A stretch of 64,000 nucleotides of DNA from an uncultured Candidatus Saccharibacteria bacterium (GCA_964474825.1 CAYYWQ010000001.1:613609-677608); one strand, 5' to 3'. Counted from the first letter of the stretch, positions 15,236 to 58,928 are shown. Numbers and translations are program-made. The notes: a model not told the origin generated them from the letters alone.

Positions 15236-15286
15236 GGTCATAGCAATAAGATTCTATAAATCTTATGGTTTTTTATTGCTATGACC
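15236..15286 (+). promoter_or_regulatory. perfect 14-bp inverted repeat (nested hairpin) engulfing the start codon of the lipoprotein gene
   Basis: GGTCATAGCAATAA ... TTATTGCTATGACC with inner AAGATtctataaATCTT; the ATG at 15281 lies in the right arm; strong AAGGAGG 65 nt upstream. Confidence 0.5.
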
Positions 15287-15832
15287 AACCCAAAACTGCT
15301 TGTAACAGTGATAGTTTTAGCCACCCTGATTCTCGCTTCGTGCGGGACCCAGGCTCCGGCCAACAACAAGCTCATCGCTCCAACCGAGTCCAAGCCTGTT
15401 AAATCTCAACCCACGACCACTACACCGACCCCCGCCCATACCAACATCGAGACTGACACTGCCAGCAAGCTTACGCTGGCCCAAATCGAGCCGGAGTTAG
15501 AAAGGCTGGATACACGGTTGGATGAAGAGTATGACGCCCTTAAGGGTCATCTCAAAAAGGGCAACGAGGCCGACGTCCGGAACGAACTCAACTCCGTGTT
15601 GCGAACCGAACAGAAAAGGCGGAAAGTCATCGCCCGTTACACGGAGCTGACCAAAAAGAACCATTTCCTCACATACCCCATTCTCTGGAACGATCGTCTG
15701 GATGAAGCTGGGGAGCTCACTAAGGTAGCCGTCTCGAAGTTCAGTGTTCCCGAGCTCGAGAAGTGGAAAAAGATGGCCGGTACGATACCCTCTAACCCGG
15801 ACGGGGTTGAGGTTTGGTTCACAAACCGCTAA
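15281..15832 (+). CDS. putative lipoprotein (GC-rich, foreign codon usage)
   Basis: 183 aa; signal peptide with lipobox LASCG; Pro/Thr-rich linker; codons CTC/GAG/ATC/GCC in contrast to the host AAA/TTT/ATT bias. Confidence 0.6.
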   Translation: MTNPKLLVTVIVLATLILASCGTQAPANNKLIAPTESKPVKSQPTTTTPTPAHTNIETDTASKLTLAQIEPELERLDTRLDEEYDALKGHLKKGNEADVRNELNSVLRTEQKRRKVIARYTELTKKNHFLTYPILWNDRLDEAGELTKVAVSKFSVPELEKWKKMAGTIPSNPDGVEVWFTNR

Positions 15833-15886
15833 CCTCCAGCCCTCGACAGGGCTGCGCCGGCAATATCACCGCTTCCTAGTTACTCC

Positions 15887-15928
15887 TGGAGACGAACAGA
15901 CCCCGCTTGCTGTTCGTCCCCTTTTTCC
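15887..15928 (+). terminator. rho-independent terminator after the lipoprotein gene
   Basis: GACGAACAGaccccgcttgCTGTTCGTC then CCCTTTTTC. Confidence 0.55.
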
Positions 15929-16096
15929 CGCTCACGAAAATTCGCGAGTGGAAAATTGTTAATTTATAGTTAAATCTTTCCTGGAAATGTGGGTAAAATA
16001 TTTTTTACCTATTTTCCCCTGGGAGATTTGTTTAGTCTTCGTGACCAATAAGTATCTGGTCACAAAAGCAGGGGTTTTCAATAGGGAGAATTAGAA

Positions 16097-16393
16097 TTGC
16101 CAGAACCACGTTGGCTGCTGGAAGCAGCCTTAGAAGGACTCTCTGTCGAAAGACAGAGACTCGAGCAACAGATCGCGGCTATCCGAGCGGGGGGAATCGC
16201 ACCCCCAACGGGGCCTCGGACGCATCGCCGCACAAGAAAAAAGCGGCACATGAGCGCAACAGGCAGAGCAGTAGTATCTGCCGCTCAGGCAGTGCGGTGG
16301 GCCTCTACGCCTGCAGAAAAAAAGGCGGCGAAGGCAAAACTTGCTCAGGTCCAGCAAGTTCACCAGATGAGGAAGAAAAAGGCCAGCCGTTAG
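16097..16393 (+). CDS. small basic coiled-coil protein (TTG start), GC-rich
   Basis: 98 aa, N-terminal helical LEAALEGLSVERQRLEQQIAAIRAG then Arg/Lys-rich tail; GGGAGA Shine-Dalgarno 8 nt upstream; 7-bp palindrome GTGACCA-n9-TGGTCAC at 16041-16063 upstream; other frames overlap, so the frame choice is tentative. Confidence 0.4.
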   Translation: MPEPRWLLEAALEGLSVERQRLEQQIAAIRAGGIAPPTGPRTHRRTRKKRHMSATGRAVVSAAQAVRWASTPAEKKAAKAKLAQVQQVHQMRKKKASR

Positions 16394-16451
16394 GCTGACC
16401 AAAACGGAGGAAAAATAAAACGGACGCAGATCCGTAAGCAGTTAGCTCTAT

Positions 16452-16493
16452 GCCGGCGCCCACTTGAGTGCGCCGGCAGTTTTTTTTATTTTT
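16452..16493 (+). terminator. rho-independent terminator
   Basis: GCCGGCGCccacttgagtGCGCCGGC followed by T9. Confidence 0.7.
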
Positions 16494-55814: not shown

Positions 55815-57116
55815 TTAGAGGTGCTTAGTTATAAAACTACTCAGTTCTTCTATTTTCACCCTTGGTTGTTCTTTTGTGTCACGGTTTCGCACGGTGACCA
55901 TGCCGTCTTGTAGACTGTCGAAGTCAACGGTAATACAAAATGGCGTGCCAATTTCGTCTTGGCTGTAGTAGCGCTTACCTACGTTGCCGCGGTCGTCCCA
56001 GGCCACGCTAAAGTGCTTTTGTAAGTCCTTATATATAGAGCGAGCCTTTTCCACTAATTCCGGCTTGTTTTTGAGCAAAGGGAACACAGCGGCCTTAAAA
56101 GGCGCGAGTTTTGGGGGCAGAGCTAAATAAACCCTGTCTTCTTCCTCGCGATAGGCTTCCAGCAGTGTAATAAGAATAGAACGGTCCAGACCAAATGTTG
56201 GCTCAATAACATGCGGTACAAATTTTTCGTTGGTTTCCGGGTCCATATACTGTAAATCCTGGCCGCTTGATTTAGCATGATTAGCCAAGTCAAAATCTGT
56301 CCGGTAGGCCAAGCCGTATAATTCCTTACGGCCAAATGGGTAGTCGTATTCAAAATCTATTGTTCTCTTAGAATAGTGGGCGCGGTCGCCGTCCCCAATT
56401 TCTGTTTCGTGGATGTGCGCCGGATTAGCACCAAGGTCAGAAAGCCATTCGTTCATTTCTTTCCGCCAATACTCAAACCATTTTTCCCATTCTTCAGGAC
56501 GAATAAAATATTCAAACTCCATTAAATTAAATTCCCGGGTCCTAAAAATAAAATTACCCGGGGTGATTTCGTTTCGAAACGCCTTGCCCTGGGAAGCAAT
56601 ACCAAAAGGCAAACGCTTGCGCATGGTGTCCAAAACATTTTTAAAATTTACAAACATAGCCTGGGCTATTTCCGGACGGAAATAGACGGTTGATTTTTCG
56701 TCGTCCACCGGGCCAAGGTTTGTTTTAAACATCATGTTAAATTGTTTAACCTCCGTAAAAGTTCCGGCTTTTTTGCAGCTCTGACAAGGTTCATCTAACT
56801 TTATTTGGTCTGCGCGATACCTTTCGTGGCAATATTTACACTCCACCATTGGGTCGTTAAACTCGCTTAAGTGGCCGCTGGCTTCCCAAACTTTTGGGTT
56901 CATAAGAAGCGCCGCGTCTATACCAACCATATCTGAACGGTTTTGCACAAACCGTTTCCACCACAGCTGCATAATATTATTTTTTAATTCCACACCCAAA
57001 GGACCGTAGTCCCAAGAGTTAGCAAGACCACCGTAAATTTCCGAGCCAGGAAATATAAAACCCCTGCGCTTACAAAGACTAACTATTTTGTCCATTAAGT
57101 CATTTTGTTCAGTCAT
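55815..57116 (-). CDS. glyQS: glycyl-tRNA synthetase (alpha2 dimeric type)
   Basis: 433 aa, class II motifs. Confidence 0.88.
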   Translation of the reverse strand: MTEQNDLMDKIVSLCKRRGFIFPGSEIYGGLANSWDYGPLGVELKNNIMQLWWKRFVQNRSDMVGIDAALLMNPKVWEASGHLSEFNDPMVECKYCHERYRADQIKLDEPCQSCKKAGTFTEVKQFNMMFKTNLGPVDDEKSTVYFRPEIAQAMFVNFKNVLDTMRKRLPFGIASQGKAFRNEITPGNFIFRTREFNLMEFEYFIRPEEWEKWFEYWRKEMNEWLSDLGANPAHIHETEIGDGDRAHYSKRTIDFEYDYPFGRKELYGLAYRTDFDLANHAKSSGQDLQYMDPETNEKFVPHVIEPTFGLDRSILITLLEAYREEEDRVYLALPPKLAPFKAAVFPLLKNKPELVEKARSIYKDLQKHFSVAWDDRGNVGKRYYSQDEIGTPFCITVDFDSLQDGMVTVRNRDTKEQPRVKIEELSSFITKHL

Positions 57117-57305
57117 AAATCTACAAAACTACTAATTATACGAGTCTACAAATGACTACAAAAGCTCCGCAGTTATTGGTAGTCATTTGTAGTGGCTTAT
57201 TTACTTATTTTCGTAGCTTTATTATACCAAAAACCGTGAATTTTTGCCAAAAAAAGAACCCCGTGTTGGCAACACAGGGCGACCGCATCATACTTAATGA
57301 AGGGT

Positions 57306-57527
57306 CTAGACGCTCCACTCAGGAGCTTCTTGGGGACCGGGCTTGGACTTCTTGCTGCCGGGCGGGCGGCCCCGCCGTTTACGCTTGGCTCCGTCCGTCA
57401 TCCAGGCGGGCGGGCGGCCCACCTTTTTCCCGCGGCTGCGGGCAAGGCGTTCCAGGGACAAAATTGCCTCCTCGATCGCTTCTCGTTCTCCTCGGAGCTG
57501 TTTTAAGGCTCCTTCGATATCCGCCAT
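57306..57527 (-). CDS. small GC-rich coiled-coil plus AT-hook-like basic protein
   Basis: ATG at 57527 (track lists the GTG at 57530) preceded by AAAGGAGAGTCAGTG; MADIEGALKQLRGEREAIEEAILSLERLARSRG then KKVGRPPA ... RKRRGRPPGSKKSK (two GRP cores); terminator CCCTGTGTTgccAACACGGGG plus T-run at ~57257-57285; 5' hairpin CCCGCcgctgtGCGGG. Confidence 0.45.
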   Translation of the reverse strand: MADIEGALKQLRGEREAIEEAILSLERLARSRGKKVGRPPAWMTDGAKRKRRGRPPGSKKSKPGPQEAPEWSV

Positions 57528-57650
57528 CACTGACTCTCCTTTGAACCCCGCACAGCGGCGGGATTGTTTTTAGTTTGCCTAAGTCCCCTCATGATCGGGA
57601 TTAGATAAACAGAACAGATTAACATAAAAATAATAAAAAGTCAATGCTAA

Positions 57651-57685
57651 AAATAAAAAATCTCCCAGCTTGGGAGATTTTTTCA
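57651..57685. terminator. bidirectional terminator after tgt
   Basis: AAAAAAATCTCCCAgcttGGGAGATTTTTTC. Confidence 0.7.
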
Positions 57686-57713
57686 CCGCAGACTACTATC
57701 TACAATCTACTAA

Positions 57714-58928
57714 CTACTTTGCTGTGTAGTCTTTATAATCTTTAACCATGGTATCAAAATAGTCATACTCAATAGCCTTGCGGATTTTTTCCATAAGATT
57801 TAAATAGAAGCGTAGGTTGTGCATGGTAGCCAAACGGATTGCCAGCTGCTCGCCTGTGGCAAATAAGTGCCGCAAATAGGCACGGCTATGGTTTAGACAC
57901 AAATAACAATTACAAGTACTGTCCACGGTAGTAAAATCTTCTTTGTATTTTTCTAAGGTAATATTCATTGTAGAATAACCCTCGCCACCGGTTTCGGATT
58001 TTGCACTTACATACAGCCTGCCATGCCGGGCTTCCCTTGTTGGAATTACGCAGTCAAAAGTGTCACACCCTCTGCTTACTGCCTGGACAATGTCAAAAGG
58101 CGTACCAACGCCAAGTAAATGTTTTGGCGAAGTTTCCGGCAAAAATGGGACCGATGCTTCTATGGCTAACATCATTTCCTTATGAGGTTCCCCTACTGCT
58201 ACGCCCCCAATAGCAAAGGCTTCGAACCCAAGCTCTACCATATCTTTAGCGGACTGCGCGCGAAGGTCCGGGAAACTGGCACCCTGAACAATGCCCCACA
58301 ATTTTTGCCCGGAATTAATTGGGTCGCCGTGGGACATAATATTTAAAAATTCTTTTTGCGCGCGCTCGGCCCAGCGTTTGGTAAGTTCAATAGATGCCTT
58401 AGACCTGGCGTGTTCAAATGGATAACCCGGAAAATCATCGAGGATGAGAGCAACGTCGCTCCCCAAGTTAGCCTGGATTTGGACGCTTTTTTCCGGACTT
58501 AAAATTTCCTGTTTGCCATCTAAATCAAACTGGAACAATACTCCCACTTCCATAACCTTGCGCATTTTTGCCAAACTATAAACTTGAAAGCCTCCTGAGT
58601 CCGTAAAAATTGGACCTTTCCAATTCATGAACTCATGAAGGCCTCCGGCCTTGTAAATAAGTCCGTCTCCCGGGCGTTGCCACAAATGGTAAGTGTTGGC
58701 GAGTATCATGTCCGACCCCCAAAACTTAAGCTCCTCACTAGTAACACTTTTTACTGTGCCTCTTGTGCCAATAGGCAAAAACGCCGGGGTCTTAACGTCC
58801 CCGTGCGCTGTGTGGATAATTCCATTCCGCGCTTTACTGCCGGAATCTTTTTTCAGAATGTCAAAATAAGCCATGCTAAGCTTTCGCGGCCTTGCTTTTA
58901 GATTTTTCGTCTTCTGCACCAAAGCCAC
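57714..58928 (-). CDS. tgt: queuine tRNA-ribosyltransferase
   Basis: 404 aa in the track (GTG start); the internal ATG (MAYFDILKK) about 18 codons in would abut the upstream ORF stop at 58876 and fits the Tgt N-terminus better. Confidence 0.88.
   Translation of the reverse strand: MALVQKTKNLKARPRKLSMAYFDILKKDSGSKARNGIIHTAHGDVKTPAFLPIGTRGTVKSVTSEELKFWGSDMILANTYHLWQRPGDGLIYKAGGLHEFMNWKGPIFTDSGGFQVYSLAKMRKVMEVGVLFQFDLDGKQEILSPEKSVQIQANLGSDVALILDDFPGYPFEHARSKASIELTKRWAERAQKEFLNIMSHGDPINSGQKLWGIVQGASFPDLRAQSAKDMVELGFEAFAIGGVAVGEPHKEMMLAIEASVPFLPETSPKHLLGVGTPFDIVQAVSRGCDTFDCVIPTREARHGRLYVSAKSETGGEGYSTMNITLEKYKEDFTTVDSTCNCYLCLNHSRAYLRHLFATGEQLAIRLATMHNLRFYLNLMEKIRKAIEYDYFDTMVKDYKDYTAK

What the first reader, a model, noticed from the sequence alone, without database searches (positions are those of the whole stretch)
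57117..57713. GC-rich island upstream of glyQS encoding a 73-aa coiled-coil plus AT-hook-like protein, resembling the 16097 gene product
The minus-strand gene 57306-57527 has the Shine-Dalgarno AAAGGAGAG, its own terminator, and a flanking GC-rich sequence (e.g. 57360-57430 is above 65% GC). The product has an N-terminal amphipathic helix (EGALKQLRGEREAIEEAILSLERLARSRG) followed by RKRRGRPPGSKKSK, which contains GRP AT-hook cores. The 16097-16393 product has the same layout, LEAALEGLSVERQRLEQQIAAIRAGG then a basic tail. Together they may be a family of small nucleoid-associated or DNA-binding proteins carried on GC-rich cassettes in an AT-rich genome, possibly xenogeneic-silencer-like or stealth proteins, or phage Xis-like factors.
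Basis: inference. Interest (0 to 1): 0.55.

Follow-up and report, generated by a model that had tools for sequence, protein, structure and literature searches.

The report
Small two-AT-hook protein gene, horizontally acquired
The GC-rich patch is a real 73-residue gene for a helix-plus-two-AT-hook protein, probably a DNA binder; the family is large, unannotated and typical of soil Acidobacteria (Bryobacterales), and a tiny-genome CPR bacterium appears to have acquired it horizontally, but it is not demonstrably related to the 16097 gene.

Summary
Observation confirmed. Window 57300-57499 is 66% GC in a 42% GC window. The minus-strand ORF 57306-57527 (73 aa) has an SD, its own promoter and its own terminator.

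It is a real gene. About 4,900 homologs exist (2,392 clusters at 50% identity), all roughly 65-80 aa, with a protein-coding substitution pattern. No Pfam, NCBIfam or PHROG model covers it.

Architecture: one confident helix (residues 2-31, heptad pattern) plus a low-confidence tail with two invariant GRPP hooks. The second hook (family consensus RGRPPGSKNK) equals the plant AHL type-I AT-hook and aligns to the solved HMGA1 hook-2 peptide.

The family is essentially Bryobacterales (Acidobacteriota, about 60% GC), where it is a syntenic chromosomal gene. The window is a 1.21-Mb Patescibacteria/CPR genome. Homologs were found only in this genome and its closest relative, at the same tgt|gene|glyS locus, and in none of 80 more distant relatives. 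GC3 is 0.69 against a host median of 0.42. This points to interphylum horizontal acquisition, expressed from host-type signals.

Not supported: similarity to the 16097 product (an ORFan; hhalign E=0.057, probability 1%), repeated "GC-rich cassettes", and phage or Xis origin. "glyQS" is really single-chain glyS. DNA binding is inferred, not shown.

The parts
57306..57527 (-). CDS of the 73-aa helix + two-AT-hook protein (stop codon included; an alternative GTG start lies at 57530)
   Evidence: ORF. 4,901 homologs with E<=0.01. 2,392 representatives at 50% identity. Codon-position entropy 0.71/0.49/1.50 bits in 88 Bryobacterales genes. GC 0.64, GC3 0.69.
57435..57524 (-). Codons for residues 2-31: the N-terminal amphipathic helix (ADIEGALKQLRGEREAIEEAILSLERLARS), a putative coiled-coil dimerisation element
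   Evidence: AF2 helix 2-31, pLDDT 85-95. 7 of 8 a/d heptad positions are hydrophobic in the best register of the consensus. Invariant L8 L11 E14 A21 I22 L25 E26 R27 L28 A29.
57399..57425 (-). Hook 1: KKVGRPPAW (family consensus RRRGRPPAWM)
   Evidence: G37 R38 P39 P40 W42 invariant in A1. Coding DNA is directly repeated with hook 2 (D1: 57398-57420 vs 57350-57372, 83%).
57345..57383 (-). Hook 2: KRKRRGRPPGSKK (family consensus KRRGRPPGSKNK), an extended AT-hook
   Evidence: R52 G53 R54 P55 P56 G57 S58 K59 invariant. The family profile aligns to the HMGA1 AT-hook 2 peptide 2EZD (E=0.2, short) and to other RGR(P/K)PGSKN hooks. The consensus decapeptide is the plant AHL type-I AT-hook. Pfam AT_hook is sub-threshold in homologs, 8.8-10.9 bits vs 17.4.
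57536..57544 (-). Shine-Dalgarno AAAGGAGAG
   Evidence: Read from the sequence. AAGGAGAGT is conserved in the orthologous locus L091.
57547..57562 (-). GC hairpin (CCCGCCGCTGTGCGGG on the mRNA strand) in the 5' UTR just before the SD; absent from L091
   Evidence: Function unknown (mRNA-stabilising 5' hairpin or translational control is inference).
57606..57643 (-). AT-rich host-type promoter region (TTGACT -35 box at about 57638-57643 and a downstream -10-like A/T box), conserved with L091
   Evidence: DNA alignment of window (reverse complement) with L091: TTGACT and downstream A/T-rich box conserved, placed after the tgt terminator. Not picked up by the consensus scan, so the assignment is inferred.
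57258..57280 (-). Intrinsic terminator of the small gene (10-bp stem plus T-run)
57655..57683 (-). Terminator of the upstream tgt gene (13-bp perfect stem), which makes the small gene a separate transcription unit
   Evidence: conserved in L091.

Best explanation
The island is a monocistronic gene for a 73-aa protein. The protein has a roughly 30-residue amphipathic helix, most likely a short dimeric coiled coil, and a flexible basic tail with two AT-hooks: (R)GRPPxW and RGRPPGSK(N)K. The proposed mechanism is as follows. The helix pairs two chains, so the dimer presents four hooks. Each hook inserts its G-R-P core into the narrow minor groove of A/T tracts. The protein would then act as a small nucleoid-associated or architectural DNA binder that bends or bridges AT-rich DNA. 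The gene belongs to a large, unannotated family that is a syntenic chromosomal gene of Bryobacterales (Acidobacteriota). An ancestor of a narrow Patescibacteria/CPR subclade acquired it horizontally, inserted between tgt and glyS. There it is expressed from an AT-rich host-type promoter and SD, while the CDS still has donor-like codon composition. Shown here: the gene is real, the family exists, the architecture, motif identity with bona fide AT-hooks, the taxonomic distribution, and the compositional anomaly. Inferred: dimerisation, DNA (rather than RNA) binding, AT preference and physiological role.
For: Real, selected gene:
- 4,901 homologs of 65-80 aa and 2,392 clusters at 50% identity.
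- Third-codon-position entropy is 2-3 times that of positions 1 and 2.

Architecture:
- Invariant helix and hook residues.
- AF2 helix 2-31 with pLDDT 85-95, tail pLDDT 50-65.
- Heptad pattern 7/8.
- Linker between the hooks varies in length among members, as expected for independent hooks on a flexible tail.

AT-hook identity:
- Family profile aligns to the HMGA1 hook-2 peptide solved on DNA (2EZD).
- RGRPPGSKNK is the plant AHL type-I hook consensus.

Donor lineage:
- The 80 best of at least 273 relatives in GTDB species genomes are nearly all Bryobacterales, Solibacteraceae or Terriglobia.
- SSF and amino-acid permease lie upstream in 60/80 loci.
- Their genes have GC 0.62 and GC3 0.68 in 0.60-GC loci.

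Recipient:
- GlyRS relatives are Patescibacteria.
- Host ORFs of at least 150 aa have median GC3 0.42, sd 0.06, against 0.69 for this CDS.
- Only the CDS resembles Bryobacterales DNA, at 70-75% identity.
- The closest relative L091 has a homolog (E=7e-15) at the same locus, sharing promoter and SD.
- 80 more distant CPR loci have none.
- Both junctions are confirmed by an independent assembly.
Against: - No experiment or structure shows DNA binding. AT-hook matches are short and statistically weak (E=0.2; Pfam AT_hook below cut-off).
- Hook 1 in the window has V rather than R before G-R-P.
- Extended AT-hooks can also bind RNA (own knowledge).
- Dimerisation was not modelled.
- HGT timing is unclear. 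The window and L091 copies do not group together (NJ, sister in 4/50 bootstraps). They are only 49-53% identical, although glyS is 85% identical. Donor-like GC3 persists despite an apparently old shared locus.
- Syntenic small proteins in L092 and L176 share only the helix. A native CPR 'helix' gene that gained hooks is therefore not fully excluded.
- The taxonomic survey used patterns derived from Bryobacterales-rich sequences and was capped at 600 stretches.
Confidence: 0.6

Rival explanations
1. The protein binds RNA or the ribosome. The basic, disordered GRP-rich tail binds structured RNA (as reported for 'extended' AT-hooks) and the helix mediates self-association. It would be a small RNA chaperone or ribosome-associated factor rather than a nucleoid protein.
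For: The tail is predicted with low confidence and is very basic. Both hooks have distal basic residues. The gene sits next to translation-related genes (tgt, glyS) in the CPR genomes, but this is not the context in Bryobacterales. That extended AT-hooks bind RNA is own knowledge.
Against: The motif matches DNA-binding hooks (HMGA1 hook 2 solved on DNA; plant AHL type I) residue for residue. No conserved ribosomal or RNA-processing neighbour in the donor lineage.
Confidence: 0.15
2. The protein is a specific transcriptional regulator or partner-binding adaptor, for example controlling the adjacent SSF/amino-acid-permease genes in Bryobacterales, rather than a global architectural protein. The helix would bind a partner protein and the hooks would only anchor it to DNA.
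For: Conserved adjacency downstream of the SSF + AA_permease pair in 60/80 Bryobacterales loci. In Myxococcus CarD, AT-hooks serve as a DNA anchor for a regulator that works through protein partners (PMC2919716, PMC4374960).
Against: Paralogs sit in unrelated contexts. The CPR copies lack the transporter neighbours yet keep the hooks. AT-hooks give little sequence specificity (own knowledge).
Confidence: 0.12
3. The helix-type small gene is native to this CPR clade at the tgt-glyS locus, and the GC richness reflects composition and selection rather than transfer. Alternatively, transfer went from CPR to Bryobacterales.
For: L092/L093 and L176 carry small proteins at the same locus whose helix matches the family (hhalign E=1.1e-5; shuffle z=8.9 and 5.9). 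Amino-acid composition alone would give GC 0.55.
Against: GC3 of 0.69 is more than 4 sd above the host ORF median and equals the Bryobacterales median. Hook-type homologs were found in only two CPR genomes, against hundreds of Bryobacterales species with conserved synteny. CDS-level DNA similarity is to Bryobacterales.
Confidence: 0.1
4. The island is a structured non-coding RNA, or a spurious ORF produced by GC-rich sequence.
For: GC-rich islands in AT-rich genomes are often RNA genes. Three other long ORFs overlap the island on both strands.
Against: No Rfam family at gathering threshold or at E<=10 inside the CDS. Thousands of protein homologs show synonymous third-position variation. The other overlapping frames have no significant Pfam support.
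Confidence: 0.02

Closest known systems
Eukaryotic AT-hook proteins: HMGA1/2 (hook 2, PKRPRGRPKGSKNK) and plant AHL type-I hooks (RGRPPGSKNKPKP)
   Same: Same extended hook: R-G-R-P core followed by (P/K)-G-S-K-N-K. The family-consensus decapeptide is identical to the AHL type-I hook. Several hooks sit on an intrinsically disordered basic chain.
   Different: Bacterial and only about 70 aa. It has an N-terminal coiled-coil-like helix instead of the HMGA acidic tail or the AHL PPC/DUF296 domain. It has two hooks, not three. Hook 1 is followed by an invariant Trp (GRPPxW). Whether the hooks are homologous or convergent is unknown.
Myxococcus xanthus CarD (HMGA-like C-terminal domain with RGRP AT-hooks)
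   Same: A bacterial protein that uses eukaryote-type AT-hooks to bind DNA (PMC2919716, PMC4374960).
   Different: CarD is a large multidomain RNAP- and CarG-binding regulator with four hooks and an acidic stretch. The present family has no CarD_CdnL_TRCF domain (no Pfam hit).
Xenogeneic silencers and NAPs: H-NS, MvaT, Lsr2
   Same: Same logic of an N-terminal oligomerisation element plus a C-terminal element that probes the AT-rich minor groove with an (R/Q)GR 'AT-hook-like' motif (PMC4466236, PMC6936261, PMC8476142).
   Different: In those proteins the hook-like loop is embedded in a folded DNA-binding domain, and the N-terminal domain forms higher-order filaments. Here there is no folded DNA-binding domain. 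There is no significant match to Histone_HNS (10 bits vs 25.6) or to any other model. Silencing is untested.
Hin/Pin serine invertase minor-groove arm (GRPR / GRPP before the HTH)
   Same: The G-R-P-(R/P) segment inserts into an AT minor groove (own knowledge). This probably explains why JGI labels a few members 'DNA invertase Pin-like'.
   Different: No resolvase catalytic domain and no HTH. The JGI label is a motif-level mis-annotation.

Membership tests
AT-hook motif (Pfam PF02178 / SMART AT_hook) | Core G-R-P preceded by R, i.e. R-G-R-P | tested here: met
   Hook 2 is RGRPP in the window and invariant in the 28-sequence alignment A1. Hook 1 is GRPP, preceded by R in the consensus but by V in the window copy.
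AT-hook motif (Pfam PF02178 / SMART AT_hook) | Basic residues flanking the core; extended type with a GSKNK-like C-terminal flank | tested here: met
   Window KRKRRGRPPGSKKSK; consensus KRRGRPPGSKNK, identical to the AHL type-I hook; aligned to HMGA1 hook 2.
AT-hook motif (Pfam PF02178 / SMART AT_hook) | Score above the Pfam gathering threshold | tested here: not met
   8.8 bits (P0245) and 10.9 bits (L091 protein) vs cut-off 17.4. No hit at E<=1 for the window protein itself. The model is only 13 positions long, so single hooks rarely pass.
AT-hook motif (Pfam PF02178 / SMART AT_hook) | Binds the minor groove of A/T tracts | not testable with these tools
   Needs EMSA, footprinting or NMR.
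H-NS / MvaT / Lsr2 xenogeneic silencers | Folded C-terminal DNA-binding domain of the family (Histone_HNS, Lsr2) | tested here: not met
   No significant Pfam or NCBIfam hit. Histone_HNS scores 10 bits vs 25.6 in one homolog only. AF2 shows no folded C-terminal domain.
H-NS / MvaT / Lsr2 xenogeneic silencers | N-terminal oligomerisation and selective silencing of AT-rich foreign DNA | not testable with these tools
   A helix with a heptad pattern is present. Oligomeric state and silencing are unknown.
Uncharacterised 'helix + 2xGRPP' small-protein family (this work; Bryobacterales-type) | About 65-80 aa; N-terminal MD(V/I)xK(I/M)LxELRxERxxIEEAIxxLERLA helix; GRPPxW; RGRPPGSK | tested here: met
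   Window protein vs family: phmmer E down to 3.5e-17, 56-71% identity, and all 26 invariant columns include the window sequence.
Same family as the window 16097-16393 product | Significant sequence or profile similarity | tested here: not met
   BLASTP E=9.2. hhalign E=0.057, probability 1%. Shuffle tests z=2.0 and z=0.0. The 16097 product has no homologs.
Phage excisionase (Xis) or mobile-element accessory protein | Homologs on phages or plasmids, or an integrase/transposase neighbourhood | tested here: not met
   No tblastn match in the phage or plasmid collections. PHROGs only at E>=0.06. Neighbours are tgt and glyS. Chromosomal synteny in Bryobacterales.

The most novel reading that the evidence does not exclude
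The family is a previously unrecognised class of bacterial nucleoid-associated protein: a minimal coiled-coil dimer carrying eukaryote-type extended AT-hooks. It would act in high-GC Bryobacterales as a sensor or silencer of AT-rich (foreign) DNA. Its capture by one soil Patescibacteria subclade, with donor-like codon usage retained, would mark a physical host-episymbiont association between that CPR lineage and Bryobacterales.
Probability: 0.2. Interest if true: 0.72.

Novelty: new variant of a known kind. Interest (0 to 1): 0.5.

Why it matters
Acidobacteriota are among the most abundant soil bacteria, yet their chromatin proteins are almost unstudied.

- A roughly 70-aa family, found in hundreds of Bryobacterales species genomes with conserved synteny and carrying textbook AT-hooks, has no database model. 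It is an obvious, cheap candidate for a new nucleoid-associated protein. It would also be the smallest known 'oligomerisation + AT-hook' design.
- The exact match to the plant AHL and HMGA extended hooks raises the question of convergence versus ancient sharing of this motif.
- For CPR biology, a gene of clear Bryobacterales type inside a complete 1.2-Mb Patescibacteria genome is a concrete lead to a possible host, or at least a close neighbour, for a soil CPR lineage whose hosts are unknown.
- It also shows that streamlined genomes can recruit foreign DNA-organising proteins.

Tried and rejected
- Structured RNA as the cause of the GC island: Rfam at gathering threshold over the whole window and at E<=10 on 57100-57720 gave only noise in the AT-rich flanks. 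Rejected.
- Other frames or strands of the island (130-, 76- and 69-aa ORFs): no significant Pfam support and no family. Rejected.
- Curated family assignment: Pfam, NCBIfam and PHROGs gave nothing significant.
- Link to the 16097 product: BLASTP, hhalign, shuffle tests and a homolog search were all negative or marginal. A weak chain through the L092 protein is not enough to claim homology.
- Further paralogs in the window: tblastn with five queries found none.
- Mobile-element origin: phage and plasmid tblastn were empty. BLAST's low-complexity filter was on, which may hide weak hits.
- Co-transfer of flanking DNA: blastn of the UTRs against 90 Bryobacterales loci found nothing.
- Monophyly of the two CPR copies: NJ with bootstrap on 69 columns was unresolved or negative. 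Synonymous-site comparison with the flanking genes had too few sites, 7/20 vs about 0.5.
- PDB sequence search gave only motif-level hits. A fold search was not run, because a single helix is uninformative.
- A NUMOD3-like reading of the 'S-x-x-G-x-x-x-I/V-x-x-AQ-x-x-RW' C-terminus of L092 and the 16097 product came from memory and got no Pfam support. Dropped.

Full report
**1. What is in the sequence**

- Window 57300-57499 is 66% GC. The 300-nt bin 57301-57600 (61%) is the richest of the whole 64-kb window, whose mean is 42.5%.
- On the minus strand, ORF 57306-57527 encodes 73 aa: MADIEGALKQLRGEREAIEEAILSLERLARSRGKKVGRPPAWMTDGAKRKRRGRPPGSKKSKPGPQEAPEWSV.
- It has the SD AAAGGAGAG and a terminator-like hairpin with a T-run right after the stop, at 57280-57258.
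- The upstream gene tgt (57714-58928) has its own perfect 13-bp terminator at 57683-57655, so the small gene is a separate transcription unit.
- The downstream gene (55815-57116) is the single-chain alpha2 GlyRS (PF00587 + PF03129), not glyQS.
- An independent short-read assembly (L001) is 100% identical over 1,207 bp spanning both junctions, which excludes a chimeric assembly.

**2. It is a real protein-coding gene**

- No Rfam family matches the island.
- The protein has 4,901 homologs with E<=0.01 in the 5.8-billion-protein collection. All are about 65-80 aa and mostly 56-71% identical.
- A word-free HMM search with the family alignment finds 2,392 representatives of 50%-identity clusters, 822 of them at E<=1e-10.
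- Across 88 Bryobacterales genes the per-site entropy is 0.71, 0.49 and 1.50 bits at codon positions 1, 2 and 3. This is the signature of purifying selection on a protein.
- No Pfam, NCBIfam or PHROG model covers the family. Sources call members 'hypothetical'. A few JGI entries are labelled 'DNA invertase Pin-like', most likely a motif-level artefact of the GRPP segment.

**3. Anatomy**

- The family consensus is MDVxKILAELRQEREQIEEAILSLERLARGRGRRRGRPPAWMTD-(variable)-KRRGRPPGSKNK-(variable tail).
- There are 26 invariant columns in 28 diverse sequences. They cover the hydrophobic face of the helix, GRPPxW and RGRPPGSK.
- AF2 predicts one helix, residues 2-31 (pLDDT 85-95), then a low-confidence tail (pLDDT about 50-65).
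- In the best heptad register, 7 of 8 a/d positions of the helix are hydrophobic, which fits a short coiled coil.
- The spacer between the two hooks varies from about 5 to more than 25 residues among members, as expected for independent motifs on a flexible chain.
- The two hooks are encoded by a direct DNA repeat (57350-57372 and 57398-57420, 83%), which suggests an internal duplication.
- Hook 2 is a canonical extended AT-hook:
  - The family profile aligns to the HMGA1 hook-2 peptide whose DNA complex is solved (2EZD, PKRPRGRPKGSKNK). The E-value of 0.2 is weak only because the peptide is short.
  - The consensus decapeptide RGRPPGSKNK is the defining sequence of plant AHL type-I AT-hooks (PMC7896510).
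  - The Pfam AT_hook model hits homologs below threshold.

**4. Where the family lives**

- The 80 best are almost all Bryobacterales, Bryobacteraceae, Solibacteraceae or unclassified Terriglobia/Acidobacteriota. Two exceptions lie on MAG contigs of doubtful binning.
- In these genomes the gene is a stand-alone chromosomal gene. An SSF symporter plus an amino-acid permease lie upstream in 60 of 80 loci, and HtrA-CoaE-FolD lie downstream in a subset. Some genomes carry a second paralog elsewhere.
- These genes have median GC 0.62 and GC3 0.68, in loci of 0.55-0.67 GC.
- No relatives were found in 50,697 phage or 72,556 plasmid records.

**5. What the window organism is, and how the gene got there**

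- The window GlyRS is closest to Patescibacteria/CPR proteins (named hits: Doudnabacteria, Paceibacterota, Wolfebacteria, Liptonbacteria). The exact proteins lie on a 1.21-Mb NCBI contig.
- Host ORFs of at least 150 aa have median GC3 0.42 (sd 0.06, maximum 0.66). The small CDS has GC3 0.69, against 0.46 expected for the same protein under host codon usage.
- So about half of the GC excess comes from the R/G/P/A-rich composition, and the rest is donor-like codon choice.
- Only the CDS shows DNA similarity to Bryobacterales genes (70-75% over about 130 nt, up to 84% across the hooks). The UTRs are AT-rich and unmatched.
- The tgt-glyS spacer was inspected in eight close CPR relatives:

| Locus | GlyRS identity to window | What lies at the locus |
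|---|---|---|
| L091 | 85% | Clear 66-aa homolog (E=7e-15; GC 0.56, GC3 0.58), sharing the tgt terminator, a TTGACT-type promoter and the SD AAGGAGAGT |
| L175 | 83% | A sigma-factor gene upstream of glyS instead |
| L090 | 82% | No homolog |
| L092 / L093 | 80% | 75-aa protein sharing only the N-terminal helix (hhalign E=1.1e-5; shuffle z=8.9), with a different C-terminus |
| L176 | 79% | Low-GC 108-aa protein with a helix-like segment (z=5.9) |
| L177 | 79% | No homolog |
| L094 | 78% | GC-rich 63-aa ORF, with a 'KRGRPA' in another frame (possibly a decayed remnant) |

- Eighty further CPR loci with GlyRS at most 73% identical have no homolog near glyS.
- The simplest reading is transfer from a Bryobacterales-like donor into the ancestor of a narrow CPR subclade, followed by domestication under host expression signals.
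- Interphylum HGT into Patescibacteria is documented but uncommon (PMC12455944).

**6. Loose ends on the transfer**

- The window and L091 CDSs are only 49-53% identical, although glyS and tgt are 85% and 77% identical.
- Each copy is nearer to Bryobacterales sequences than to the other. They are sisters in only 4 of 50 NJ bootstraps.
- The window copy keeps fully donor-like GC3.
- Identity at four-fold sites (7/20) is not significantly below that of the flanking genes (about 0.5).
- The data therefore cannot distinguish one old insertion with rapid divergence from a later replacement of the CDS.
- The helix-only proteins at the same locus in L092 and L176 leave a minority possibility that a native small 'helix' gene pre-existed there.

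**7. The claimed link with 16097-16393**

- That ORF (98 aa) has a TTG start, an SD (GGGAG) and a downstream GC hairpin with a T-run at 16451-16480.
- It has no homolog other than itself and no family hit.
- Against the 57306 protein, BLASTP gives E=9.2. Against the family profile, hhalign gives E=0.057 at 1% probability, over 20 helix residues.
- Shuffle tests give z=2.0 (p=0.05) for the window protein and z=0 for the family consensus.
- A weak full-length similarity to the L092 protein (BLASTP E=0.001 as a single comparison; z=4.1) hints at a 'helix + S..G....AQ..RW' type. It did not survive a larger search space.
- The resemblance is therefore one of layout and composition, not demonstrable homology.
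- The 15281-16400 region between rpsJ and tuf is nevertheless a second compositional outlier. ORF 15281-15832 has GC3 0.66, the highest of all large ORFs.

**8. Mechanism proposed**

- Shown: a conserved amphipathic helix plus two conserved AT-hook motifs on a low-confidence (presumably flexible) tail.
- Inferred: the helix dimerises, the four hooks of a dimer bind the narrow minor grooves of A/T tracts, and the protein acts as a small architectural or nucleoid-associated factor.
- In a 60% GC Bryobacterales genome such tracts are rare and may mark promoters or foreign DNA. In a 42% GC CPR genome they are everywhere, so the role there may be more general DNA coating or compaction.
- Rivals are RNA or ribosome binding, a locus-specific regulator or adaptor (as for CarD), and native CPR origin. 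Each is listed with its refuting experiment.

**9. Verdict**

- The structural reading (helix + AT-hooks) is well supported at motif level, though function is untested.
- The family link to 16097, the 'cassette' notion and the phage/Xis idea are not supported.
- The find is a new, unannotated variant of a known kind (AT-hook DNA binders). It comes with an interesting interphylum transfer from Bryobacterales to a soil CPR lineage.

Noticed in passing
window 57146-57192 (and promoter-like site 57250-57221, minus strand): A 17-nt inverted repeat (CTACAAATGACTACAAA / TTGGTAGTCATTTGTAG, 94%) sits in the glyS 5' leader, downstream of a near-consensus extended -10 promoter (TTGGCA-18-TATAAT, 11/12). 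No T-box or other Rfam hit. The orthologous L091 spacer is only about 60 nt and lacks it. It may be a glyS operator or attenuator.
   Followed up: partly
window 15281-16400: A second compositional outlier lies between rpsJ and tuf, on the opposite strand to both. It holds a 183-aa lipoprotein-like ORF (LILASCG; GC3 0.66, the highest among ORFs of at least 150 aa; no Pfam hit) followed by the 98-aa ORFan 16097-16393 (no homolog in 5.8 billion proteins). It may be another foreign insertion into the normally contiguous tuf-rpsJ region.
   Followed up: partly
L090-L094, L175-L177 (tgt-glyS spacer of related CPR genomes): The tgt-glyS spacer is a variable spot in this CPR clade. Depending on the genome it holds a hook-type gene, helix-only small genes with other C-termini, unrelated small ORFs, a sigma factor, or nothing.
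   Followed up: partly
L094:3672-4000: A GC-rich (0.55) 63-aa ORF lies upstream of glyS, with 'KTKRGRPA' in a neighbouring frame. It may be a frameshifted remnant of a hook-type gene.
   Followed up: no
window 57547-57562: A GC hairpin (5-bp stem, all G-C) lies directly upstream of the small gene's SD. Read on the plus strand it looks like a terminator with a T-run, but no plus-strand gene precedes it. It is absent from L091.
   Followed up: no
L048 / L050, L057 / L076, L032 / L086: Several Bryobacterales MAGs carry two paralogs of the family, in one case on the same 247-kb contig. A minority context (ECF sigma - Ser/Thr kinase ... gene - 385-aa unknown - PMT_2) differs from the main SSF/permease context.
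   Followed up: no
L059, L061: Two family members sit on contigs binned as Verrucomicrobiia (1.7 kb) and Gammaproteobacteria (24.9 kb). All of the family loci analysed have Bryobacterales-like GC (0.55-0.67). These may be mis-binned contigs or further transfers.
   Followed up: no
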